Below are positions 1 to 21,498 of a stretch of 29,097 bases of DNA, piece by piece. Positions within the stretch are counted from its first letter, which is position 1; each line of letters opens with the position of its first letter. A model generated the notes under the pieces. That model searched no databases. It had not been told where the DNA came from and worked only from the letters and a program-made list of their open reading frames with translations. Origin of the DNA: an uncultured virus (IMG/VR IMGVR_UViG_3300020048_000028) (taxonomy: Duplodnaviria; Heunggongvirae; Uroviricota; Caudoviricetes); the IMG/VR virus record IMGVR_UViG_3300020048_000028. One strand, given 5' to 3'. A program made the position numbers and the translations under genes.

Positions 1-480
1 AGTATTGGAGGATTTGCTAATTTTGAAAATAGTCAAGTAAAAGATTTAGGTAATCTAACAACTATTGGTAGTATTGGAGGATTTGCTAATTTTGAAAATA
101 GCCAAGTTGAAAATTTAGGCAATCTAACAACTATTAGAGGAGATGCTTATTTTGGTAATAGTCAAATTAAAAATTTAGGTAATCTAACAAGTATTGGCGG
201 AGCTGCTTATTTTGAAGATAGTAAAGTTGAAAATTTAGGCAATCTATCTTATATTGGGGGGAATATATATGCAAAGGGAAACAAATTAACCAAAGAGCAA
301 GTTGAGCAGCATATAAAAAATATAAATGCAATTAATCTTATTAGAAAAGGATTGTACTATATTTCAAACGGAGAGGTTTTTATTAAACGAAATGATGTTG
401 AAGTAAAAAAAGTAGATTATAAACATTTTTTCATCAGAGATTTGAAATTCAATGATAACGGAACAATAGCATTAAGATAA
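1..480 (+). CDS. 20-aa solenoid (LRR-like) repeat protein, paralog A; 5' truncated by window edge
   Basis: Frame +1 is open from base 1 to TAA at 478-480: SIGGFANFENSQVKDLGNLTT...FFIRDLKFNDNGTIALR. Same repeats and C-terminal domain as the three downstream ORFs. Absent from the ORF track because its start is outside the window. Confidence 0.9.
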   Translation, partial: SIGGFANFENSQVKDLGNLTTIGSIGGFANFENSQVENLGNLTTIRGDAYFGNSQIKNLGNLTSIGGAAYFEDSKVENLGNLSYIGGNIYAKGNKLTKEQVEQHIKNINAINLIRKGLYYISNGEVFIKRNDVEVKKVDYKHFFIRDLKFNDNGTIALR

Positions 481-1397
481 TGACACAGGAAGAAATAAAA
501 ATAAATATAGAAAATCAAATAGAGGATTTTAGGAAAACCTTAAAACCTGATGAGATAGCTGAGTCTGAACAAGACTTCAATCCAAAAAAAACTAAATTGA
601 TTTATTTTAATGTTAATTTTGAATTTACTAAAATAACAGATTTAGGTACGCTTGAAGTGATTGATGGATACGCTGATTTTAAAAACAGTAAAATAAAAAA
701 TTTAGGCAATCTAAAAATTATTGGTGGATATGTTAGTTTTAGCAATAGTGAAATATTTGATTTGGGTAAATTAAAAAGTGTTCAATCTGATGTTTATTTA
801 ACAGATAGTAAAGTAACTAATTTAGGTAATCTGACAACTATTGGGGGTGATATTAGTTTTAGATATATAACTAATTTAGGTAATCTAACGACTATTGGTA
901 GTTATGCTTCTTTTCATGGAAGTAAAGTAACTGATTTAGGTAATATAAGAATTATTGGCGGAGGTTGTCGCTTTCAGGATAGTGAAGTAATAAGTTTAGC
1001 TAATCTAAAATTTATTGGTAAAAATGCTGATTTTACAGATAGTAAAATAAAAAATCTTGGTAATTTAACGACTATTGTTGGAGAAGCTGCTTTTGAAAAT
1101 AGCCAAGTTGAAAATTTAGGCAATCTATCTTACATCGGAGGAAATATAAGTGCAAACGGAAATAAATTAACCAAAGAACAAGTTGAGCTGCATATAAAAA
1201 AGATGAATGCAATTAATATCATCAAAAAAGGGTTATATTATATTTCAAAAGGAAAAATTTTTATGCAGCCAAGAGAAGGAGAATGGGGATTTACGCTTGG
1301 TAAATCCATAAATCGTTTTTCCCTTTCGAGTAAGGGTAGGGATTTTTTAATTAGGGATTTGAAATTCAATGATAACGGAACAATAGCATTAAGATAA
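480..1397 (+). CDS. 20-aa solenoid (LRR-like) repeat protein, paralog B (9 repeats plus cap)
   Basis: 305 aa. N-domain MTQEEIKINIEN...DFNPKKTKL, repeats IGGxAxFxNSxIxNLGNLTT, C-domain KGLYYIS...RDLKFNDNGTIALR. TAATG overlap with neighbours. Confidence 0.9.
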   Translation: MTQEEIKINIENQIEDFRKTLKPDEIAESEQDFNPKKTKLIYFNVNFEFTKITDLGTLEVIDGYADFKNSKIKNLGNLKIIGGYVSFSNSEIFDLGKLKSVQSDVYLTDSKVTNLGNLTTIGGDISFRYITNLGNLTTIGSYASFHGSKVTDLGNIRIIGGGCRFQDSEVISLANLKFIGKNADFTDSKIKNLGNLTTIVGEAAFENSQVENLGNLSYIGGNISANGNKLTKEQVELHIKKMNAINIIKKGLYYISKGKIFMQPREGEWGFTLGKSINRFSLSSKGRDFLIRDLKFNDNGTIALR

Positions 1398-2152
1398 TGA
1401 CACAGGAAGAAATAAAAATAAATATAGAAAATGAAATAGAAGCTTTTAAAAAGACTTTAAAGCCTGATGAGATAGCTGAGTCTGTTGATGACTTCAATCC
1501 TAAAAAGACTAAGTTGATTGATGGATACGCCAATTTTGAAAATAGTAAAATAGAAGATTTAGGCACACTTGAGGCTATTGGAGGATTTGCTAATTTTGAA
1601 GATAGCCAAGTTAAAAATTTAGGCAATCTAACAACTATTGGAGGAGATGCTTATTTTCAAAATAGTCGTATTAAAAATTTAGGTAATCTAACAACTATTG
1701 GAGGATATGCTGATTTTGGAAACAGTAAAGTAGAAAATTTAGGCAATCTAACAATTATTGGTGGAACTGCTATTTTTTATCATAATACTAAAATAAAGGA
1801 TTTAGGGAATCTAAAAAGTATTGGCGAAAGTGCTAATTTTGTAGGTACTGAAGTAACAGATTTAGGCAATCTAACAAGTATTGGTAAAAATGCTAATTTT
1901 AATTATAGTCAAGTAACAGATTTGCGTAATCTATCTTATATCGGAGGAGATATATTAGCAAACGGAAATAAATTAACCAAAGAGCAAATCGAGCTTCATT
2001 TAAAAAAGATAAATGAAATTAACCTTATTAGAAAAGGGTTGTACTACATTTCAAACGGAGAAGTTTTTATTAATAGAAATGATGCTGATTATAAACATTT
2101 TTTCATCAGAGATTTGAAATTCAATGATAACGGAACAATAGCATTAAGATAA
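1397..2152 (+). CDS. 20-aa solenoid (LRR-like) repeat protein, paralog C (7 repeats plus cap)
   Basis: 251 aa, same architecture. The 60-nt periodicity is visible directly in the DNA at 1561-1780. Confidence 0.9.
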   Translation: MTQEEIKINIENEIEAFKKTLKPDEIAESVDDFNPKKTKLIDGYANFENSKIEDLGTLEAIGGFANFEDSQVKNLGNLTTIGGDAYFQNSRIKNLGNLTTIGGYADFGNSKVENLGNLTIIGGTAIFYHNTKIKDLGNLKSIGESANFVGTEVTDLGNLTSIGKNANFNYSQVTDLRNLSYIGGDILANGNKLTKEQIELHLKKINEINLIRKGLYYISNGEVFINRNDADYKHFFIRDLKFNDNGTIALR

Positions 2153-2913
2153 TGACACAGGAAGAAATAAAAATAAATATAGAAAATGAAATAGAAGCTT
2201 TTAAAAAGACTTTAAAGCCTGATGAGATAGCTGAGTCTGTTGATGACTTCAATCCTAAAAAGACTAAGTTAATTGATGGAGCTGCTGATTTTGAAAAAAG
2301 TACAATAAAAGATTTAGGCACACTTGAGGTTATTATTGGAAATGCTGCTTTTTTTAGATATATTAAAAATTTAGGTAATCTAACAATTATTGGTGGAAAT
2401 TCTGATTTTCAAAATACTAAAGTAGAAAATTTAGGCAATCTAAAAATTATTGGAAGAAGTGCTAATTTTCAAAATAGCCAAATTAAAAATTTAGGTAATC
2501 TAATAAGTATTGGTGGTACTGCTAATTTTGAAGATAGTAAAGTAGAAAATTTAGGCAACCTGACGACTATTGGTAGAGATGCTTTTTTTCCAAATAGTGA
2601 AATTGAGAATTTAGGTAATCTAACAACTATTGAAGGAATTGCTTATTTTAAAGGTAGTCAAGTTCAAAATTTAGGCAATCTATCTTATATCGGAGGATTT
2701 TACGCAAACGGAAACAAATTAACCAAAGAGCAAGTTGAGCAGCATATAAAAAATATAAATGCAATTAATCTTATTAGAAAAGGATTGTACTATATTTCAA
2801 ACGGAGAGGTTTTTATTAAGCGAAATGATGTTGGAGTAAAAAAAGTAGATTATACGCAATTTTTCATCAAAGATTTGAAATTCAACAATAATGGAACAAT
2901 AGAATTAAAATAA
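2152..2913 (+). CDS. 20-aa solenoid (LRR-like) repeat protein, paralog D (7 repeats plus cap), last of the array
   Basis: 253 aa. N-terminal ~43 aa identical to paralog C; C-domain closest to paralog A. Confidence 0.9.
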   Translation: MTQEEIKINIENEIEAFKKTLKPDEIAESVDDFNPKKTKLIDGAADFEKSTIKDLGTLEVIIGNAAFFRYIKNLGNLTIIGGNSDFQNTKVENLGNLKIIGRSANFQNSQIKNLGNLISIGGTANFEDSKVENLGNLTTIGRDAFFPNSEIENLGNLTTIEGIAYFKGSQVQNLGNLSYIGGFYANGNKLTKEQVEQHIKNINAINLIRKGLYYISNGEVFIKRNDVGVKKVDYTQFFIKDLKFNNNGTIELK

Positions 2914-2915
2914 GC

Positions 2916-3821
2916 CTATTCTTTATTTTCAATTTCATTTATAAAGTTTTTAAGCTCCAATCCTTGATGAATAAGTTTATCAAATATCTTTATTATCGCT
3001 AATCTTTTCATTTCTGAACTTATAATATCTTCAATAGTAGGCGTAATGCTATTTGTTGATATTGCATTTATTATATCTCTAAATTGTTTTATTTCAAATG
3101 TAGACTTAGCATTATGAGAAGAATGTTTTCTTATAGTGTTGGTTCTTGCTTTGTCGTATAATATTTCTTTTTCTAAAGTGGTAAGGTATCCTATCGAGTG
3201 CTTGATACAGTAGTCATAAAATATATGACCAAAATCGTATATTTTAATTTCCTCTCCTTTTTTATGTCTTTCAAAATCATCTATATGAGATTGAAGCCAT
3301 CTTTGATAATATTCTTTTTTCTCATCATCATTTATTTTAGAGGGTTCATTTTTTTGAATAGATTGTAATGATTTTATAGCTTCAGATTTAATAGTTTGAT
3401 TATATGTTTTTAACCAATTATAAAAAGTACGAACACTTAATCCCATATATTCGCCTAAATCTCCTCTAATTCCTTTTCTAAAGGCTAAACTAATCTCAGA
3501 TAGCGTCATGTAACCAAAGTCCGAGAAGATGTCTTTGATGACAAGTATAATTAATTCTGATATGTTTTCAGTTTTAAATCCTGATTCAAAAATCGTTAGG
3601 TTAATTAATTCCTGTATTTTTTTACCTGATAAGTTAGCGTCTATATCTTTAATAGGTTTTTCTGAAAAACGAGCAAGCAAAACCTCTCTATTAGAAATGC
3701 TTATATTTGAGTCTTTAATGTCTGATATGGTTATTTCTCCCCAAACTTTAAAGTTGTCGTTAATTTCATTTTCATTTAAAACTTGGATTGATTGGTTTGT
3801 GTTTGAAATTTCGTTGTTCAT
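2916..3821 (-). CDS. Phage replication protein, putative helicase loader (lambda P-like position)
   Basis: 301 aa directly downstream of the initiator-like gene. Motif MTLSEISLAFRKGIRGDLGEYMGLSVRTFYNWL resembles proteins found at this position in Bacteroidota phages. Function inferred from position. Confidence 0.5.
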   Translation of the reverse strand: MNNEISNTNQSIQVLNENEINDNFKVWGEITISDIKDSNISISNREVLLARFSEKPIKDIDANLSGKKIQELINLTIFESGFKTENISELIILVIKDIFSDFGYMTLSEISLAFRKGIRGDLGEYMGLSVRTFYNWLKTYNQTIKSEAIKSLQSIQKNEPSKINDDEKKEYYQRWLQSHIDDFERHKKGEEIKIYDFGHIFYDYCIKHSIGYLTTLEKEILYDKARTNTIRKHSSHNAKSTFEIKQFRDIINAISTNSITPTIEDIISSEMKRLAIIKIFDKLIHQGLELKNFINEIENKE

Positions 3822-5016: not shown

Positions 5017-6282
5017 CTATGCTACTTTTTTATAATGATGTCCACTTTTCAGATTAATCATTATTGGACGTACTACAACGCCCTCTATTCCATCTGCAAA
5101 AGCGTTTGGAAATTCTTTTCTTATTATATTACCACTACCGTTACAATCGGCATTTATTTTAATTTTGTTTTTTGATATAAATAATCCACGATGCTTTCTT
5201 CTTCCTAAATATTCTTCTTGATGTTTCATTTCCTCATTATCAATAAAACTGCATTTACTTGTATAGCTTTCTTCTGTTACGATTACTTCCACTCCAACTA
5301 ATTTACATTTGTACTGAATCATTTGAATAAAACGAGCATGAGGAATATTTACAAAAGCCTGATTATTTCTTTTACCTATATTTATATCGGTTTTCCATTG
5401 TTTGTTTTTGCCAATTACTAAAACTCCAAATTTATTTAAAACAAGGTGGTCAACTATTATTTTACTTGAATTGTGCAAATAATTGTCAACTTTTCTATTT
5501 CTTTTATTTGTTATTTTTATTAATCGGTTCGAGGATTTATCACCTACATAAGATTGTAATTGTGCTTTTTTCTTATTGTAGAATTGATTTATAGATTTTA
5601 GTGGTCTGCCGTTAATCAGTAGTGGTACTACTTTTTGATTTGATGTTATAGCTACTAAATTATTTAATCCTAAATCTACTCCTGCTACCCTGTTTTTGTT
5701 TAAGTTTTCATTGATTACCTCCTGTTTATTATAAACTATTTCGATTACATAATGACCTATTTTAGGCACTACTCTTACTTGTTGTATTGTATTTGTATCT
5801 TGCTTTGTCCGTATTCTTATTTTAGTTCCTGATAATAAAACAAATCCTTTTCTCAATTCTACTTTTGAAATTGCTTGAATAGTATAAATTAAAATACCTC
5901 TACCATTTTTTTTATGCTTATATTTAGGTAATGATGGTTTCCCTTTATATTTACTCGGATTCTTTTTCCAATCACGAATTGATTTAAAAAACGAAGTCCA
6001 ATTTTTATCCAATAACCTTAAAATGTGTTGAGAAACTTTTGAAGGTAATTTTTTATAATCAAAATCTTTATCATCTTGTAATTGTTTTTGTATTTTGTTA
6101 TAACGAATCCAATTTGCCTTATCACGTTTACCTAATTCTTTTTCTTTTGATGTTGAGATAAATTCCTGACGAATTATGTAATTAGCTTTATTATAAAGGT
6201 TCTTTGACAGAAATCCAATAGAATCTAACTCATCATAAAATAAGTGATTTTTATTAATTATATGTCGCTCTACTAATTGCAT
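5017..6282 (-). CDS. tnpB: TnpB RNA-guided endonuclease
   Basis: 421 aa: SKNLYNKANY N-terminus, RuvC-I AGVDLGLNN, EESYTSKCS, RuvC-III INADCNG, C-terminal ADGIEGVVVRP. Confidence 0.95.
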   Translation of the reverse strand: MQLVERHIINKNHLFYDELDSIGFLSKNLYNKANYIIRQEFISTSKEKELGKRDKANWIRYNKIQKQLQDDKDFDYKKLPSKVSQHILRLLDKNWTSFFKSIRDWKKNPSKYKGKPSLPKYKHKKNGRGILIYTIQAISKVELRKGFVLLSGTKIRIRTKQDTNTIQQVRVVPKIGHYVIEIVYNKQEVINENLNKNRVAGVDLGLNNLVAITSNQKVVPLLINGRPLKSINQFYNKKKAQLQSYVGDKSSNRLIKITNKRNRKVDNYLHNSSKIIVDHLVLNKFGVLVIGKNKQWKTDINIGKRNNQAFVNIPHARFIQMIQYKCKLVGVEVIVTEESYTSKCSFIDNEEMKHQEEYLGRRKHRGLFISKNKIKINADCNGSGNIIRKEFPNAFADGIEGVVVRPIMINLKSGHHYKKVA

Positions 6283-6848
6283 TATTTTTCTAATTCTTTT
6301 ATCAGTTGTTCGGTTTTTCTTTTAGTTCTTCGTTGACCATATAGCCTTGCTGTAAAACTTGTGATTATAGAAACAAAATCCTGCATTAAATCATCTCTGT
6401 CGCTACTTTGTTTGTTAACTACTTCGATTGACCTACCTTGATTTTTCATTAATTTTTCAATATAATTCATACCAAATCGACTAAATCTATCAGAATGTTC
6501 TACAACTATTTTAGTTACACTTTTATCAAGTAATAATTTCTCTAATTGTTTTCGATTATCATTTAATCCACTTCCAATTTCTTTTACTACCTTGTCAACC
6601 TTCCATCCTTTCGCATTGCAATAGGAAATCAATCTATCAGCTTGTTTTTCTAAATTATTTTTATTTTCACTTGACGAAACCCTTGTGTAAATAACAATTT
6701 TTTCTTCAATATTAGTTAACTCTTTATTGTCAACAACAATACTACCTGACGTAAGTTTTCTTGAATTTGGTATTTTACCCATCTTGAATAAATCCCATGC
6801 TCGTTTATATCCTAAATCATTCTTTTTTGCCCAATCTCTTAATTTCAT
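6282..6848 (-). CDS. tnpA: IS607-family transposase TnpA (serine recombinase with N-terminal HTH)
   Basis: 188 aa: N-terminal MerR-like HTH, catalytic IYTRVSS, EIGSGLN, VEHSDRFSRFG, SFTARLYGQR. Confidence 0.95.
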   Translation of the reverse strand: MKLRDWAKKNDLGYKRAWDLFKMGKIPNSRKLTSGSIVVDNKELTNIEEKIVIYTRVSSSENKNNLEKQADRLISYCNAKGWKVDKVVKEIGSGLNDNRKQLEKLLLDKSVTKIVVEHSDRFSRFGMNYIEKLMKNQGRSIEVVNKQSSDRDDLMQDFVSIITSFTARLYGQRRTKRKTEQLIKELEK

Positions 6849-9769: not shown

Positions 9770-11095
9770 TTATTTTAATTCAAGAGCTGATTGAGCCTTA
9801 CTTCCTTTTTTAATCTTTGCCTCCTCAAACTTGATGTTGTCAAATTCAATGTTTGGTTTCCCTTTGGCATTTAGCTCTTTTACAATTATTGTCCTTTTAA
9901 ATTTATATTTATTATCTACAATTGGTCTATAACTGCATTGTAATAATTTATAACCACTATTAAATACTCCACGCTGTATTGGGCTAACAGAAATCGCAAA
10001 TGGTTTGTAATAATCATCAGGAACAAAATTATCTACTACTAACATACCTTTTGAATCGTAATATTGCTTAGGTATTTCTGATAATGGCTTTATTTTATCT
10101 GTTTTATGTTTTTGTTGAATATTTGTGTAAACTAAAGCTATTGCGTTTTTCTTTTTGTATGTTGGGGTTAAAAACCAATCAAATCTGCATGGTAGAACAA
10201 AAAGTTTTTTGTTCCATAAATCTTTTGTCCATGTATATTGTACTGCTGTTTTACTTCCTAAACATATAACATCTTTTCCTGTTGAAAGCATACATTTAAA
10301 GAAATGTTCAAATTTTGAAAAAGGAGGGTTGGTAATAATTATATCAGCTTCGTTATTTGCAATATCCATACACTCTTTATCGGAATAAGAACCATGAAAA
10401 TTAGACTTACTACCAACGGGAGGTATTCTTAAAATCTTTTTTCCATCATAAATTGCAATAAATCCATCGTATTCATTCCATTGATTGCTAAAAAGAGAAC
10501 CTGAAAAGTCTAATTTAGAGCCATCATAACGAGTAGATATAATTTTTTTTAATTTTAGTTTTTTAAAGTTATTGTAAAAGTAAATCCAAAAAGCTGATTG
10601 TCCTGCATCATCACAGTTCATATAAACCACTTTGTTTTTCCAATAATCTGTTCCAAAATGATTTACTATTGTATCTACATCATTATAAAAAGTATAACAT
10701 TCATCACTTTCAATAGAAACCATATCTTCATCGTCATTGTATCTACCTTTGGTTCTCGTTTTGTTTAGTCGCTCCAAATCTGTCAAACTGCCATTTTCAT
10801 TAACTTGTGGTAAATGTTTAACAGAAATCAAAGGAAATATTTTTTGCCAAATAGCAGAACGAAGTTCTTTGCTATCGTAACTACATTCTCTGCCTTTACC
10901 TACCTCATTCCATTCAGGCAAATTGTAAATAGTTTTTAAAACTTCATCTGCATTGTTTTGTACTTCTATTGGCAAAATCCATTCAAGTTTTTTGCCTTTT
11001 TGCCCTTTCCAAGAATATCCCCCACGCCCTCTATGTAATTCAAGTTGTCCGTTACAACTTTCTAATATTACATAATCAATTTTTTGTTTTTCCAT
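9770..11095 (-). CDS. Adenine-specific DNA methyltransferase, EcoRI family, with N-terminal extension (orphan)
   Basis: KNKVVYMNCDD...SAFWIYFYNNFKKLKLKKIIST and ADIIITNPPFS match M.EcoRI-family motifs. No adjacent cognate restriction enzyme recognised. Confidence 0.85.
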   Translation of the reverse strand: MEKQKIDYVILESCNGQLELHRGRGGYSWKGQKGKKLEWILPIEVQNNADEVLKTIYNLPEWNEVGKGRECSYDSKELRSAIWQKIFPLISVKHLPQVNENGSLTDLERLNKTRTKGRYNDDEDMVSIESDECYTFYNDVDTIVNHFGTDYWKNKVVYMNCDDAGQSAFWIYFYNNFKKLKLKKIISTRYDGSKLDFSGSLFSNQWNEYDGFIAIYDGKKILRIPPVGSKSNFHGSYSDKECMDIANNEADIIITNPPFSKFEHFFKCMLSTGKDVICLGSKTAVQYTWTKDLWNKKLFVLPCRFDWFLTPTYKKKNAIALVYTNIQQKHKTDKIKPLSEIPKQYYDSKGMLVVDNFVPDDYYKPFAISVSPIQRGVFNSGYKLLQCSYRPIVDNKYKFKRTIIVKELNAKGKPNIEFDNIKFEEAKIKKGSKAQSALELK

Positions 11096-11108
11096 TTGGT
11101 CTTGTGGT

Positions 11109-11369
11109 TTAATTAAATTTAATTATTTTTTTACTTAGATTTATTCTTTTAAATGCTCTTTTTTCAATACTCGCTAACTTATATTCAGAATACCTTATTC
11201 CATCTATTCTATAATACATACTTCCATTATGATTAGATTTTTCTATTATTTTATATCTTTTAAATCTGCCTAATCTATCGTAATAGTTTAATTGATATAA
11301 GCTCCCATCTTCTGACATAACAATGTGTGGTAAATCTTCATAAATCTTTCTTATTGTTATTTGCGACAT
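11109..11369 (-). CDS. Hypothetical protein
   Basis: Basic ORF; start MSQITIRK at 11369 preferred (track start 11396). Confidence 0.6.
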   Translation of the reverse strand: MSQITIRKIYEDLPHIVMSEDGSLYQLNYYDRLGRFKRYKIIEKSNHNGSMYYRIDGIRYSEYKLASIEKRAFKRINLSKKIIKFN

Positions 11370-11664
11370 TTCTTGTTCTAAATTTCTTATTCTCAAGGTA
11401 TTTTGATTTCCCTTTGATGTACTCTTGCATCAGTTCTTCTTCTATTGTGTCTTTTTTTCGTTTATCACATTCCTCGCAAAGTAACCACAGGTTCTTAACA
11501 GAATTTCCTCCGCCTTTAGATAATGGTATCTTGTGGTCTATTCTTCTTTCTGTTTCTAAATCTATTAGATTTTTATAGCATCTTTGGCACTCATAGTTAT
11601 CTCTTTCAAATATATTGTTTCTAAATTCTTTACTGAATTTTTTACGCTTTACTTTATTCGGCAT
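11338..11664 (-). CDS. HNH endonuclease
   Basis: IFERDNYECQRC...IDHKIPLSKGGGNSVKNLWLLCEEC. Confidence 0.9.
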   Translation of the reverse strand: MPNKVKRKKFSKEFRNNIFERDNYECQRCYKNLIDLETERRIDHKIPLSKGGGNSVKNLWLLCEECDKRKKDTIEEELMQEYIKGKSKYLENKKFRTRNVANNNKKDL

Positions 11665-13750: not shown

Positions 13751-14005
13751 TTACTTATTATAAATTAATAAAACTTCTTCTTTATTTTTTTCAAATACAA
13801 CTATGTATCCACTTTTAATAAGAACATTAAGCATAAATTTCACATAATATTTCACATCATTAAATACTAAGGTATGAATAGGATGCCCTCGTTCAATTCT
13901 CTCTCTTGCTTTTTTTCTAAGGTGAGGAGTATATAATGTTATTTTTTTAGTATCAATGCAAATAGTGTATGATTTTAAGCCTATTGGTTCTTCGTATTGA
14001 ATCAT
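13751..14005 (-). CDS. Hypothetical protein
   Basis: 84 aa, TAATG-coupled to the upstream gene. Confidence 0.7.
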   Translation of the reverse strand: MIQYEEPIGLKSYTICIDTKKITLYTPHLRKKARERIERGHPIHTLVFNDVKYYVKFMLNVLIKSGYIVVFEKNKEEVLLIYNK

Positions 14006-15060
14006 TATTTTTGACTTTCATTTACAAAAAACACTTTGTAAAAACCCATGCCTTTATCATCATCATAACCTTTTTCAATTAAATCATGTCTGTTTATGAT
14101 TGTGATTTCAAAATTCTCATCAAGAACAATATTACTTTTCATAAACTTGTTTCCTTTTTTCAAAGCATTTTTAGAAATGGTAAAGTTGTCTGATATTTCG
14201 GCATTATATGTTTTTTCAAAATTGCTCTTGTTTTCATTAAAGGCAGCTATTAATTCATTCTGAATTAAAACTTCGTGCTGAAAATCATCTTTATTAAATT
14301 CTATATTTCTATCAAGATATTTCATAGAATTATTTAAAATCATCATTTTGTCCTTTTCATCAACTCCATTTTCTTTTGTTAAAACTCTTTCGGAGAAATC
14401 AACACAAAGATTAATATAGTTAGATGTGTGTAAGTAAGGTGAAGCTTTAAGTTTCATGTTAAGGAAATCTACTAACCAATAAAGAGATGGTTCTTTTAAT
14501 TTGTTAGATTTATCAATCATTACCGCTTTATATCCTTTGTCTTTATCAAGATTGAATATCAATACTCCCATATCCAATTTCTTAGGGCTGATGCCTAAAT
14601 CTGTATCAATATCGAATGTATCATTGTGAATATCTACTTTAATAAAGGTTTCTTTTGATTCTGATTTGAAAATACCTACTGCATCACAAAGTTGACCGTC
14701 AACAATAATATTTTTTATCAATGAAACGTAAAGTTCTCCTCCTTTAGCTTTAGGGTGCATCGTATGTCTATGTAAGCTTTTAGCTATTTCAACAGAACAA
14801 TCAAATAACTTATTGCTGTCATCGAAAATCATTTCCGATAAATCTTTTACTGCTCCTACTCCAAATTGTGAATCACTTGAAAATTGGTAATAGATGTCAT
14901 TTTTAAAACCTGATAGTAAAAAGTTAAAGAAAACCTCTTTTACTACGGCATTTTTAAATTTATATGGTTTATCTGTGATAACCATTTCTTCTCCTAAACC
15001 ACTATTACCTACATAGTGTGTTGTTAATGCAGACATATCTGCTCTTGTGAAATCAATCAT
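14005..15060 (-). CDS. Nucleoid-associated protein, NdpA/YejK (NA37) family, Bacteroidota type
   Basis: 351 aa. HYVGN, HPKAKGGELYV, AVGIFKSESKETFIKV, YWLVDFL and IVLDENFEI...IEKGYDDDKGMGFYKVFF match the Bacteroidetes form of this family. Confidence 0.85.
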   Translation of the reverse strand: MIDFTRADMSALTTHYVGNSGLGEEMVITDKPYKFKNAVVKEVFFNFLLSGFKNDIYYQFSSDSQFGVGAVKDLSEMIFDDSNKLFDCSVEIAKSLHRHTMHPKAKGGELYVSLIKNIIVDGQLCDAVGIFKSESKETFIKVDIHNDTFDIDTDLGISPKKLDMGVLIFNLDKDKGYKAVMIDKSNKLKEPSLYWLVDFLNMKLKASPYLHTSNYINLCVDFSERVLTKENGVDEKDKMMILNNSMKYLDRNIEFNKDDFQHEVLIQNELIAAFNENKSNFEKTYNAEISDNFTISKNALKKGNKFMKSNIVLDENFEITIINRHDLIEKGYDDDKGMGFYKVFFVNESQK

Positions 15061-20456: not shown

Positions 20457-21257
20457 TTAATCTTTTAATTTTAAATTATATCTATATAAAACGCTATTAA
20501 CTTCTCTTAATGTTGTTAATCCAAAATTTCTATATTTCATTAAATTTTTAGCTGAGGCTAAAGACAATTCTCTTAATGTTGTTATGCCTGCTGTTTTTAA
20601 TGAATTTAAAGCTCTTACCGATATATCAATATCTATTAATTCTGTTTCAAGTAATATATTAGCGTTTTTTTCGCTATCTAAAATGTTTTTATTTAACTCA
20701 CTATATTCTGATTGTAAAAAATCATACTTCTTTTTAAGTTCATTATAGTCATTGTTAATCCTGTTTGAACTAACTACTCTATAATATGATTTTTCAAAAA
20801 TTTGACGAACTCTCTCAGCCGAGATTTTATATTCATTACATACATCTTCTCTTGATTTATTTTCAACCAATAAAGCTCTTAGTACGTTATATTCTCTTTC
20901 GCTTAAAGTGTCTTTAATATTTAATAAAAATAAGTTTACAGTTTTCTCTATCATATAAAATAAATAATTAGTATTATGATTATACTTTTTAATATGATTT
21001 TCTAATTCATTTTCAAATATGAATGTTGCAGAGCCTTTATTTTCAGAATTTGAAAAACTTGATATAATGCTTTTTTTTATCAATCCAATGATATAATTAG
21101 ATGATATATTATCATGCTTTTTTAAAAAGTCATTCAGTCTTATAGGGTTTTCATTTAATATCCTTTCGCAAAGTATTTCGTTAGATAAGATAAAATATGC
21201 ACTTCTTTTACCTAATTGTAACTTGTCTAATATTTTTTCTTCTAATTCTTTGGTCAT
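20457..21257 (-). CDS. Sigma-region-4-like HTH fused to an RNA polymerase alpha C-terminal domain
   Basis: LSEREYNVL...SREDVCNEYKISAERVRQI (sigma70 region 4), a coiled coil, then IDISVRALNSLKTAGITTLREL...LMKYRNFGLTTLREV (alpha-CTD). Start is 21257 or 21281. Confidence 0.85.
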   Translation of the reverse strand: MTKELEEKILDKLQLGKRSAYFILSNEILCERILNENPIRLNDFLKKHDNISSNYIIGLIKKSIISSFSNSENKGSATFIFENELENHIKKYNHNTNYLFYMIEKTVNLFLLNIKDTLSEREYNVLRALLVENKSREDVCNEYKISAERVRQIFEKSYYRVVSSNRINNDYNELKKKYDFLQSEYSELNKNILDSEKNANILLETELIDIDISVRALNSLKTAGITTLRELSLASAKNLMKYRNFGLTTLREVNSVLYRYNLKLKD

Positions 21258-21273
21258 TTTTATAATTATTTTA

Positions 21274-21498
21274 TTAATCAATAATTCTCATAGCACGAAA
21301 AGTTTTGAAAACATCCGAATGGTATGTTATTATCTCATTATCTACTATCATGCAGGTATTTACGCCAAGTGATTGATTAAAACTTTCCTCGTCTATTTTT
21401 AATTCTATCAATAAACTTTTTATTTCAGAGTCAGTAAAACCTTCCTCGTATTTTGTTTTGTAATTATAAACTAAGTCTTGTAATTCTTTATTTGCCAT
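21274..21498 (-). CDS. Hypothetical protein
   Basis: 74 aa, packed in the operon. Confidence 0.7.
   Translation of the reverse strand: MANKELQDLVYNYKTKYEEGFTDSEIKSLLIELKIDEESFNQSLGVNTCMIVDNEIITYHSDVFKTFRAMRIID

What the first reader, a model, noticed from the sequence alone, without database searches (positions are those of the whole stretch)
1..2913. Tandem array of constant-cap / variable-solenoid proteins: a candidate VLR-like diversified binder repertoire in a phage
Seen: at least four head-to-tail, TAATG-coupled paralogs. Each has a near-constant ~40-aa N-domain and 60-80-aa C-domain around 9, 7 or 7 copies (full-length genes) of a 20-aa repeat IGG-x-A-x-F-x-[ND]-S-x-[IV]-x-NLGNLTT. Scaffold residues are conserved, while the alternating x positions vary widely in almost every repeat (DAYFQ, YADFG, FANFE, TAIFY, GCRFQ, DAFFP, IAYFK, SANFV). 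No signal peptide or TM segment. Established: alternating hypervariable strand positions between fixed caps is the design of LRR binders such as lamprey VLRs and internalins. Inference: a phage-encoded family of variable-specificity protein binders (anti-defence inhibitors, host-factor adaptors or virion-displayed binders), with the constant ends docking to a common partner.
Basis: partly seen in the sequence, partly recalled or inferred. Interest (0 to 1): 0.85.

Follow-up and report, generated by a model that had tools for sequence, protein, structure and literature searches.

The report
Tandem LRR-like solenoid genes in phage
A phage carries at least four back-to-back genes for small leucine-rich-repeat-like coil proteins whose ends are kept alike by recombination while the exposed repeat residues differ; the same repeat is built into giant phage and plasmid 'polyvalent' proteins, so they are probably host-binding modules, but nothing shows antibody-like programmed diversification.

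Summary
Observation confirmed. Window 1-2913 holds four head-to-tail + strand paralogs (first one cut by the window edge) joined by identical TAATG stop/start overlaps. Each has a 41-aa N-cap, then 9, 7 or 7 copies of a 20-aa repeat, then a 62-79-aa C-terminal part.

AlphaFold gives a confident beta-solenoid. Its closest solved relative is Vibrio FlrP, an LRR protein (Z 15.1; profile E 5.7e-5).

The repeat is not confined to this family. It occurs in two other families of small tandem paralogs with different caps. It is also embedded in or next to giant polyvalent proteins (ART-PolyVal, RadC-JAB, LPD38, PBECR5) of phages, and beside a conjugative coupling protein.

Variation concentrates at repeat positions 11, 13 and 15, but from a narrow alphabet (D/N/Y; E/Q/K). 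Divergence between repeats is saturated, and the one unsaturated pair gives dN/dS about 1.2 (p 0.61). A near-identical copy in another metagenome differs by one solenoid residue and a swapped N-cap. Exact 77-119-nt runs in the caps show recombination or gene conversion. No reverse transcriptase is present.

Verdict: a recombining germline LRR-like family, probably cytoplasmic binders used in host takeover. It is VLR-like in architecture only.

The parts
1..480 (+). Paralog 1 (g0), 5'-truncated by the window edge: at least 4 repeats plus a C-terminal part (codons from 274). Contains a recent 69-bp (23-aa) unit duplication.
480..1397 (+). Paralog 2 (g1), 305 aa: N-cap 480-602, nine 20-aa repeats 603-1154, C-terminal part 1155-1397 (79 aa, with a 12-17-aa insertion relative to the others).
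1397..2152 (+). Paralog 3 (g2), 251 aa: N-cap 1397-1519, seven repeats 1520-1960, C-terminal part 1961-2152. This is the protein that was modelled.
2152..2913 (+). Paralog 4 (g3), 253 aa: N-cap 2152-2274, seven repeats 2275-2706, C-terminal part 2707-2913. Its stop lies 2 nt from the stop of the convergent minus-strand gene 2916-3821.
415..515 (+). Example of a conserved junction block (end of the C-terminal part, TAATG, start of the next N-cap): 101 nt identical to 2087-2187. Similar exact runs are 439-515 = 1356-1432 (77 nt) and 1356-1437 = 2111-2192 (82 nt).
1397..1515 (+). N-cap coding stretch, 119 nt identical to 2152-2270 (g2/g3). Identity falls to 58-89% in the repeats that follow.
277..386 (+). 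C-terminal coding stretch, 110 nt identical to 2710-2819 (g0/g3).

Best explanation
The array is a germline multigene family of small, cytoplasmic, LRR/L-domain-like beta-solenoid proteins carried as accessory cargo by a phage whose genes almost all lack Shine-Dalgarno motifs (probably a Bacteroidota host).

Shown:
- Each 20-aa repeat is one coil with three short strands. A helix caps the N-terminal end. A helix plus an orphan, basic tail of about 40 aa follows the last coil.
- The same repeat module is widespread in tailed-phage and conjugative-element proteins. It occurs as small tandem, TAATG-coupled paralogs with other caps, and also embedded in or next to giant polyvalent proteins.
- The array changes by ordinary homologous recombination: unequal exchange between 60-bp repeats alters repeat number, and exchange or gene conversion in the conserved block formed by the C-terminal part, the junction and the next N-cap makes chimeras.

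Inferred:
- The solenoid is a protein-binding module.
- The ladder formed by positions 11/13/15 (D/N/Y-rich, then E/Q/K/R/G) is its contact face.
- The paralogs give the phage several fixed binding specificities against host factors during takeover or counter-defence.

There is no dedicated hypermutation or somatic assembly.
For: Fold:
- AlphaFold2 mean pLDDT is 79.9, at or above 90 for residues 11-160 by 10-residue blocks, with a repeating EE---EE-------E pattern.
- VIA-align: 8z5u_0 (Vibrio FlrP, 'typical LRR protein') Z 15.1, rmsd 2.8 A, 165 of 180 residues, well above the next rows at Z 10.8 or less.
- Profile A1 against PDB sequences: E 5.7e-5 to the same chain.
- Recep_L_domain or LRR_5 score above Pfam cut-offs in relatives (P0007 34.0 bits, L004 40.4, L024 37.5, L023 LRR_5 30.5).

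Spread:
- 84 homologues.
- ESM Atlas look-alike clusters are 99-100% Viruses/Uroviricota (a lead only).

Company:
- The repeats lie inside a 5307-aa protein with PBECR5, RadC-JAB and LPD38 (L001).
- They lie inside proteins with ART-PolyVal, NUDIX or GNAT domains (L006, L007).
- Small arrays follow RadC-JAB giants (L010, L011).
- An array of at least 6 paralogs sits beside a T4SS coupling protein (L025).
- Polyvalent proteins are interpreted as conflict weaponry delivered with the DNA (PMC5512222, abstract and passages).

Recombination:
- Exact runs of 119, 110, 101, 82 and 77 nt occur in the caps, against 37 nt at most in the repeats.
- P0004 equals the g1 N-cap joined to the g3 body.
- g0 carries a 69-bp unit duplication.

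Accessory status:
- Related phage L029 has the two neighbouring genes (59% and 48% identity) but no repeat ORF in the 20.7 kb held.

No signal peptide or TM segment.
Against:
- No polyvalent protein is visible in this window, because the array runs off the left edge.
- dN/dS at the variable positions cannot be told from 1. For the g0/g3 pair, 14 non-synonymous and 2 synonymous changes on 46.5 and 7.5 sites give a binomial p of 0.61.
- Aligned repeats are no more alike than random repeat pairs (scaffold pS 0.25-0.38 against 0.33; x-position pN 0.30-0.53 against 0.46). Divergence is therefore saturated.
- The alphabet at positions 11 and 13 is narrow (D/N/Y/S 88% and Y/D/N 86% of 95 distinct units in the sister families). 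This could reflect structural ladders rather than a paratope.
- g3 and P0004 differ by only 1 solenoid residue.
- The face assignment rests on periodicity and DSSP, not on measured solvent exposure.
- The nearest solved relative, FlrP, is a structural spacer, not a variable binder.
Confidence: 0.5

Rival explanations
1. Virion-associated proteins. They would be either packaged and ejected with the DNA, as polyvalent proteins are thought to be, or displayed as accessory host-recognition elements docked through the constant ends.
For: - The array ends a + strand block that converges on the replication module. In related phage L029 the convergent block holds lysis genes (GH19, amidase), which suggests a late transcription unit.
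- g1 gives a weak hit to phrog_8765, 'internal virion protein' (E 2.9e-4).
- Goslar virion proteins combine a shared docking module with LRR/beta-helix domains (bioRxiv 10.64898/2026.04.21.720040, passages).
- The basic C-terminal tail is an orphan that models poorly on its own (pLDDT 50.1), as a docking element might.
Against: - The phrog_8765 hit was not reproduced: 0 of 12 relatives and paralogs hit it.
- No structural genes are visible in the window.
- No known virion-docking domain was found by Pfam or PHROGs.
- Late timing is inferred from a distant relative only.
Confidence: 0.2
2. Programmed or selection-driven hypervariable repertoire (VLR-like or DGR-like). The x positions would be actively diversified to track changing targets.
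For: - Constant caps surround variable cassettes, and recombination acts between paralogs.
- Nei-Gojobori dN at x positions exceeds dS in all 6 gene pairs.
- Codons at positions 11 and 13 are NNY in 37 of 38 cases, which resembles the outcome of adenine mutagenesis of AAY codons.
Against: - The dN > dS result is a saturation and AT-bias artefact: random repeat pairs give the same values.
- The least diverged pair gives omega of about 1.2, p 0.61.
- No reverse transcriptase was found among the window's 11 other ORFs of 250 aa or more, all scanned.
- All genes are complete ORFs.
- The g3 solenoid differs by one residue from P0004, found in another metagenome.
- NNY follows simply from a D/N/Y/S preference in a 28% GC genome.
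Confidence: 0.05
3. Nucleic-acid mimic or nucleic-acid-directed solenoid, like the pentapeptide-repeat proteins Qnr and MfpA. An acidic 20-residue-per-coil helix would imitate DNA to block restriction enzymes or topoisomerases.
For: - Pentapeptide-repeat proteins are the next structural matches (2j8k Z 10.8, 2bm4 Z 10.5).
- They also have 20 residues per coil (this is recalled knowledge).
- The solenoids are acidic (pI 4.5-5.4) and the sister family more so (net -21 over 404 aa).
- Weak Pentapeptide_3 hits occur in P0012 and P0018.
Against: - Net charge is only -2 to -6 per solenoid, far from known DNA mimics.
- The inward-facing residue spacing (2, 5, 8, 12, 14, 19) does not fit the A(D/N)LXX register (my reading of the sequence).
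- FlrP/LRR matches are much better (Z 15.1, rmsd 2.8).
- The window proteins give no Pentapeptide hit at E of 1 or less.
Confidence: 0.07
4. A repeat family that expands and contracts by recombination with little or no specific function, so that the variation is neutral drift at surface positions of a stable scaffold.
For: - Omega of about 1 at x positions.
- The array is absent from related phage L029.
- Repeat number varies from 3 to 18 in the sister family.
Against: - Scaffold and caps are under purifying selection (dN/dS 0.25-0.38).
- All ORFs are intact and translationally coupled.
- The restricted alphabet at positions 11 and 13 is conserved across three cap families and in giant proteins.
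- The module recurs in phages and conjugative elements of several phyla.
Confidence: 0.12

Closest known systems
Vibrio FlrP (PDB 8z5u chain 0; bioRxiv 10.64898/2025.12.04.692373)
   Same: It is a beta-solenoid of 20-residue LRR-type coils and the best structural and only significant sequence match among solved structures (Z 15.1, rmsd 2.8 A, 21% identity; profile E 5.7e-5).
   Different: FlrP has a Sec signal peptide, a positively charged surface and a fixed structural role as a spacer on the flagellar rod (passages). The window proteins have no signal peptide, have acidic solenoids and an extra C-terminal tail, and occur as a variable multigene family in a phage.
BspA-type LRR (Pfam LRR_5, e.g. 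TpLRR 6mlx) and Receptor L domain (PF01030)
   Same: They share an IG..AF-type repeat signature. Weak-to-significant Pfam hits occur across the family, and TpLRR gives Z 9.2 at rmsd 3.8 A.
   Different: The window proteins score below both curated cut-offs (15.4 against 27.7 bits; 19.6 against 21.8 bits). Their period is a strict 20 aa, shorter than LRR_5 units. No dedicated Pfam, NCBIfam or PHROG model covers them.
Polyvalent proteins of phages and conjugative elements (Iyer et al. 2017, PMC5512222)
   Same: The same repeat module is embedded in or adjacent to proteins carrying ART-PolyVal, LPD38, PBECR5 and RadC-JAB domains.
   Different: The window proteins are single-module and small. The paper's text has no occurrence of 'leucine-rich', 'LRR', 'solenoid' or 'beta-helix', so this module does not appear to be part of its catalogue. 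Its supplements were not read.
Tandem LRR-protein arrays of Flavobacterium psychrophilum (PMC8400371)
   Same: Both have consecutive LRR paralogs whose number varies between isolates, in a repeat-rich region prone to recombination (passages).
   Different: Those are bacterial chromosomal genes discussed as virulence or host-interaction factors. Homology to the window family was not tested here.
Lamprey and hagfish variable lymphocyte receptors
   Same: Both are LRR solenoids with constant caps and variable residues on the strand face, and both diversify by exchange of LRR cassettes.
   Different: VLRs are assembled somatically from an incomplete germline gene plus flanking cassettes, have Cys-rich LRRNT/LRRCT caps and are secreted or anchored (recalled knowledge). 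Here all genes are complete, there are no such caps and no signal peptide, and the structural match is generic (2o6q Z 8.4, rank 42).
Goslar DUF7941 proteins (bioRxiv 10.64898/2026.04.21.720040)
   Same: It is a phage paralog family that combines a shared module with LRR/beta-helix or carbohydrate-binding domains, proposed to act in host recognition (passages).
   Different: No DUF7941 is present here, and virion association is not shown for the window family.

Membership tests
LRR / L-domain-like solenoid superfamily | Tandem 20-30-aa units with a conserved hydrophobic/Asn skeleton | tested here: met
   19 of 23 anchor spacings are exactly 20 aa; L2, G3, L5, I8, F14 and S17 are nearly invariant; TRF scores 229-404.
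LRR / L-domain-like solenoid superfamily | Score above the curated cut-off of an LRR-clan or Recep_L Pfam model | tested here: inconclusive
   Window proteins score below the cut-offs (LRR_5 15.4 against 27.7 bits; Recep_L 19.6 against 21.8). Relatives with the same repeat score above them (P0007 34.0, L004 40.4, L024 37.5; L023 LRR_5 30.5).
LRR / L-domain-like solenoid superfamily | Solenoid fold superposable on solved LRR proteins | tested here: met
   The model has pLDDT at or above 90 over the repeats. FlrP gives Z 15.1 at rmsd 2.8 A; internalins, IpaH and YopM give Z 9-10 at rmsd 5-6 A.
Variable lymphocyte receptors (VLR) | Incomplete germline gene completed by copying flanking LRR cassettes | tested here: not met
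   All three full-length genes are complete ORFs with start, caps and stop, and no cap-less cassettes lie between them. Somatic events cannot be tested in a phage sequence.
Variable lymphocyte receptors (VLR) | Cys-rich LRRNT/LRRCT caps, signal peptide, membrane anchor | tested here: not met
   The N-cap is an acidic helix and the C-terminal part is a helix plus a basic tail. No hydrophobic segment is present (maximum KD19 0.9).
Diversity-generating retroelement target | Reverse transcriptase plus a template repeat near the variable region | tested here: not met
   No RT family was found among the window's 11 other ORFs of 250 aa or more, all scanned with Pfam or PHROGs. Only 29 kb is visible, so an RT elsewhere in the genome is not excluded.
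Polyvalent proteins (Iyer et al. 2017) | 2-15 unrelated conflict domains in one polypeptide | tested here: not met
   The window proteins carry a single solenoid module. Relatives L001, L006 and L007 do qualify.
Pentapeptide-repeat proteins | A(D/N)LXX pentapeptides forming a quadrilateral helix; Pfam Pentapeptide models | tested here: not met
   No Pentapeptide hit at E of 1 or less for the four window proteins. Structural Z is 10.5-10.8, well below FlrP.
FlrP family | Sec signal peptide and periplasmic flagellar-rod binding | tested here: not met
   No signal-peptide-like N-terminus, only 21% identity, and a phage context.
Known anti-phage defence proteins (PADLOC) | Match to a PADLOC model | tested here: not met
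   0 of 6 proteins matched at E of 0.001 or less.

The most novel reading that the evidence does not exclude
The small solenoid proteins are free-standing, exchangeable targeting subunits for the polyvalent effector proteins of phages and conjugative elements. The same module would be either fused into the giant enzyme-bearing protein or encoded as a translationally coupled panel next to it. Each paralog would steer the shared enzymatic 'warheads' (ART, JAB, nuclease) to a different host target, much as LRR or F-box substrate receptors do for E3 ligases. The conserved ends would then be the docking surfaces. Recombination between cap blocks would be the way phages reshuffle their target range.
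Probability: 0.15. Interest if true: 0.8.

Novelty: new variant of a known kind. Interest (0 to 1): 0.5.

Why it matters
LRR-type solenoids are the scaffold of choice for evolvable recognition in animals, plants and bacterial pathogens. This finding shows a compact 20-aa version that tailed phages and conjugative elements use repeatedly. It appears as tandem, translationally coupled panels in at least three cap families, and also inside polyvalent conflict proteins.

No Pfam, NCBIfam or PHROG model names the module. The polyvalent-protein paper's text does not mention it.

If the paralogs bind host factors, they would be a new, easily recognised class of candidate anti-defence or takeover adaptors. 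They would also be a natural, small, cysteine-free binder scaffold.

The work also corrects the more exciting reading: there is no sign of programmed or positively selected hypervariation.

Tried and rejected
- Whole-genome search: no genome is held for this window.
- GenBank phage tblastn with g2: no match.
- IMG/VR scan with g2: only L001. Scan with the 301-aa neighbour: nothing.
- Foldseek against PDB: 0 matches at E of 0.001 or less.
- NCBIfam: nothing for the window proteins. PADLOC: 0 of 6.
- The phrog_8765 'internal virion protein' lead was not reproduced: 0 of 12.
- C-terminal part:
  - Profile against 1.84 billion representatives gave 5 hits, of which 3 are family members and 2 are repetitive proteins with promiscuous Pfam hits.
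  - ESM Atlas scores were 0.77 or less.
  - AlphaFold on it alone gave pLDDT 50.1, too poor for a fold search. Its fold stays unknown.
- Complex prediction (homodimer of g2, to test head-to-tail docking of the constant ends) was not available.
- dN/dS: rejected as evidence for positive selection after the random-repeat-pair control.
- Literature: the 'PcfJ' search returned only C. elegans plasmid names. Searches for phage plus LRR plus anti-defence, paralogs or multigene family found no description of such a phage family.
- The metagenome and genome scans retrieved the repeat in other architectures, but no second contig with the window's own caps.
Full report
**1. What is in the sequence**

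The left 2.9 kb of the window holds four + strand ORFs: 1-480 (open at the window edge), 480-1397, 1397-2152 and 2152-2913. The three junctions have the same 27 bases, and the TAA stop shares its last A with the next ATG.

Tandem Repeats Finder finds arrays of period 60, 69, 120 or 123 in every gene, scores 229-404. Anchoring on the conserved [DNS]L[GAR][NKT][LI] motif gives 4, 9, 7 and 7 repeats. Of the 23 spacings, 19 are exactly 20 aa.

- The 41-aa N-cap is identical in genes 3 and 4 and 88% identical in gene 2.
- The 62-79-aa C-terminal parts are 60-88% identical.
- No 19-residue window exceeds a Kyte-Doolittle mean of 0.9, and the N-terminus is an acidic helix.

**2. What the fold is**

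With a 16-sequence family alignment, AlphaFold2 gives mean pLDDT 79.9. The value is at or above 90 for residues 11-160 by 10-residue blocks and below 50 for residues 206-251. DSSP shows a helix at residues 3-19, then a strictly repeating pattern of three short strands per 20 residues, then helices at 195-204 and 208-212.

- Foldseek against the PDB gave nothing at E of 0.001 or less. The weak rows were LRR proteins, L domains and Qnr.
- The exhaustive VIA-align search put one chain clearly on top: 8z5u_0, Z 15.1, rmsd 2.8 A, 165 of 180 residues, 21% identity. It was followed at Z 10.8 or less by pentapeptide-repeat proteins, designed LRRs, internalins, SspH1/IpaH/YopM, TpLRR (Z 9.2) and, at rank 42, a hagfish VLR (Z 8.4).
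- The family profile also finds 8z5u_0 by sequence (E 5.7e-5).

That chain is FlrP of Vibrio. The passages I read describe it as a typical LRR beta-solenoid with a Sec signal peptide and a positive surface, five copies of which bind the flagellar rod.

Pfam agrees weakly for the window proteins: LRR_5 E 0.018 and Recep_L_domain E 0.001, both below their cut-offs. It agrees above the cut-offs for relatives with the same repeat.

BFVD gives uncharacterised or 'leucine-rich repeat' proteins of uncultured Caudovirales. The best is E 8.7e-4, TM 0.51.

**3. Where else the repeat occurs**

A search of 5.8 billion proteins found 84 homologues. About a dozen share the window's caps but differ in repeat number (208-280 aa). 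The rest carry the repeat in other architectures, for example with a PcfJ-like domain (P0034) or an FkbM methyltransferase (P0045).

The contig scans returned 1 viral, 19 metagenomic and 8 MAG loci. In L001-L020 I found 27 ORFs with at least 3 repeats in 18 loci. None has the window's cap motifs.

Three observations stand out.

(a) A second cap family exists, with 3 to 18 repeats. Its N-cap begins MAKSVVAFSL and its C-terminus ends EAEWEKRKNK. It forms tandem arrays: L011 has 4 genes, L010 has 3 and L016 has 2 plus a large protein. The same TAATG overlap is present.

(b) A third cap family, with at least 6 paralogs of 260-347 aa, lies on a Clostridia MAG contig beside a type IV coupling protein and BspA-type LRR proteins (L025). 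Its C-terminus shares a G-x-[FY]-[FI]-x-R-N-D motif with the window's tail. That is my reading of the sequences.

(c) Eleven ORFs of 450 aa or more embed the repeat.
- L001 is a 5307-aa protein with PBECR5, RadC-JAB and LPD38.
- L006 and L007 carry ART-PolyVal; L006 also has NUDIX and GNAT.
- In L010 and L011 the small arrays directly follow RadC-JAB giants of 2559 and 1593 aa.

These are the hallmark domains of the polyvalent proteins of Iyer et al. 2017. That paper interprets them as weaponry of phages and plasmids in conflicts with their hosts (PMC5512222, abstract). Its text does not mention LRR, solenoid or beta-helix modules; its supplements were not read.

ESM Atlas look-alike clusters of g2 (scores 0.93-0.94) are 99-100% viral, mostly Uroviricota. 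This is a lead only.

**4. Is the window a phage, and is the array core or cargo?**

All other genes lie on the minus strand. They include a replication initiator, HNH endonuclease, EcoRI-type methylase, PDDEXK exonuclease-like protein and many small ORFs. Of the 26 ORFs scanned, 13 hit PHROGs. One 398-aa ORF has homologues in 244 GenBank phage records.

Only 1 of 39 genes has a Shine-Dalgarno-like motif, and GC is 25-31% across the 2-kb windows. By established knowledge this points to a Bacteroidota host; that is an inference.

A related IMG/VR contig (L029, 73.6 kb) has the replication initiator (59% identity) and the adjacent 300-aa gene (48% identity). At the convergent position it carries small ORFs, a TnpB, GH19 and amidase lysis genes and a sulfotransferase. 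No repeat ORF occurs in the 20.7 kb held. The array is therefore accessory cargo at the junction of two transcription blocks.

**5. How the variation is distributed**

Entropy over the 19 exact units:
- Positions 11, 15 and 13: 3.05, 3.09 and 2.5 bits.
- Positions 20 and 7: about 2.2 bits.
- Skeleton positions: 0.5 bit or less.

A12 and x13 are in a strand, and A12 and F14 are the conserved hydrophobic residues. Positions 11, 13 and 15 must therefore point outward on one face and stack in register coil after coil. They correspond to the x positions of the LxLxx strand of canonical LRRs. This is inference; I had no access to model coordinates.

The variation is not free.
- In 95 distinct units of the other small proteins, position 11 is D/N/Y/S in 84 (88%) and position 13 is Y/D/N in 82 (86%). 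In 105 distinct units from the large proteins the figure is 82 of 105 for both positions.
- In the window, codons at these positions are mostly GAT/AAT/TAT. Those at positions 15, 18 and 20 are mostly GAA/CAA/AAA.

The states are thus one first-base change apart. The same positions vary in all three cap families and in the giant proteins, so this is a property of the module.

**6. Tests for diversifying selection**

Nei-Gojobori counts give dN 0.39-0.91 at x positions, against dS 0.27-0.58 at the same codons and 0.31-0.53 at scaffold codons, for the six gene pairs. Taken at face value this looks like omega above 1.

The control removes the signal. All 171 pairs of repeat units, most of them not positionally homologous, give scaffold pS 0.33 and x-position pN 0.46. 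These are the same as the aligned pairs (pS 0.25-0.38, pN 0.30-0.53). Divergence is therefore saturated, and pS is capped by AT-biased codon usage.

The least diverged pair (g0/g3) has 14 non-synonymous and 2 synonymous changes on 46.5 and 7.5 sites. Omega is about 1.2, and a binomial test against neutrality gives p = 0.61. Scaffold and caps give dN/dS of 0.25-0.38.

P0004, from another metagenome, is 247/253 identical to g3. Five of the six differences make its N-cap that of g1, and one is a K/E change at a position 15.

No reverse transcriptase is present among the window's 11 other ORFs of 250 aa or more, all of which were scanned.

**7. How the array actually changes**

Nucleotide identity is mosaic.
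- g2/g3 share 119 identical nt over the N-cap.
- g0/g3 share 110 nt in the C-terminal part.
- g0/g2, g1/g2 and g0/g1 share 101, 82 and 77 nt across the block formed by the C-tail, TAATG and the next N-cap.
- The longest exact run inside the repeats is 37 nt, and repeat identity falls to 58-89%.

This pattern indicates gene conversion or unequal crossing-over between conserved cap blocks. P0004 is exactly the chimera expected from an exchange between the N-caps of g1 and g3. The 69-bp duplication in g0 and the 3-18 range of repeat numbers show slippage or unequal exchange between the 60-bp units.

**8. The constant ends**

The N-cap comprises a helix and the F[ND]P..T+ strand, which also occurs in the other cap families. 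It is a solenoid cap. All families also follow the last coil with an amphipathic helix.

Only the last 40 aa or so of the window family are specific to it.
- They are basic (the C-terminal part has pI 9.4-10.2, against 4.5-5.4 for the solenoid).
- They are an orphan: 5 hits in 1.84 billion representatives, of which 3 are true family members.
- They are not modelled with confidence (pLDDT 50.1).

Whether they dock to a partner is open.

**9. Conclusion**

- Best reading (0.5): a recombining germline family of cytoplasmic LRR-like binding modules belonging to the conflict and takeover arsenal of phages and conjugative elements.
- Rivals: virion association (0.2), a largely neutral repeat family (0.12), a DNA-mimic-like role (0.07), and programmed or positively selected hypervariation (0.05).

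It agrees in kind but was not tested here.

My literature searches found no description of this module or of such arrays in phages. They did find tandem LRR arrays in Flavobacterium psychrophilum and LRR-bearing virion paralogs in phage Goslar.

Noticed in passing
window 5017-6848 (minus strand): An IS607-type pair sits inside the phage replication block: a serine-recombinase TnpA (6282-6848; Resolvase, phrog_6620) and a TnpB (5017-6282; OrfB_IS605 plus Cas12f1-like TNB). Related phage L029 has a TnpB at a different site (13881-15053).
   Followed up: partly
window 20457-21281 (minus strand): A 274-aa protein combines an RNA polymerase alpha C-terminal domain (E 8.4e-14) with a weak sigma-70 region 4 hit that falls below the Pfam cut-off. 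This is an unusual fusion that could redirect host transcription.
   Followed up: no
window 14005-15060 and 9770-11664 (minus strand): The phage encodes a 37-kDa nucleoid-associated protein homologue (NA37, E 4e-24), an EcoRI-type adenine methyltransferase and an HNH endonuclease.
   Followed up: no
window, 39 minus-strand gene starts: Only 1 of 39 starts has a Shine-Dalgarno-like motif. The upstream regions are A-rich and GC is 25-31%. This suggests a Bacteroidota-type host (inference).
   Followed up: partly
L001 389-16312: A 5307-aa ORF of an IMG/VR contig carries PBECR5, RadC-JAB, LPD38 and two HExxH motifs. It also has a run of at least 23 copies of the same 20-aa repeat with an SQLTSLG.L.SIGG.A.F signature.
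   Followed up: partly
L010 12342-13091 and L011 7123-7878: A GDSL-family lipase/acylhydrolase gene is interleaved within the sister-family repeat-protein arrays in two independent contigs.
   Followed up: no
L021, L022, L026, L027 (Bacilli, Clostridia and Erysipelotrichaceae MAGs): Proteins of about 680-780 aa (L021 is a 346-aa fragment) have an N-terminal HELLHF motif and a conserved central region, and end in 3-8 copies of the repeat. L022 has no Pfam family at E of 0.001 or less.
   Followed up: partly
window 2911-2918: The last array gene and the convergent 301-aa gene end 2 nt apart, which leaves no room for an intergenic terminator.
   Followed up: no
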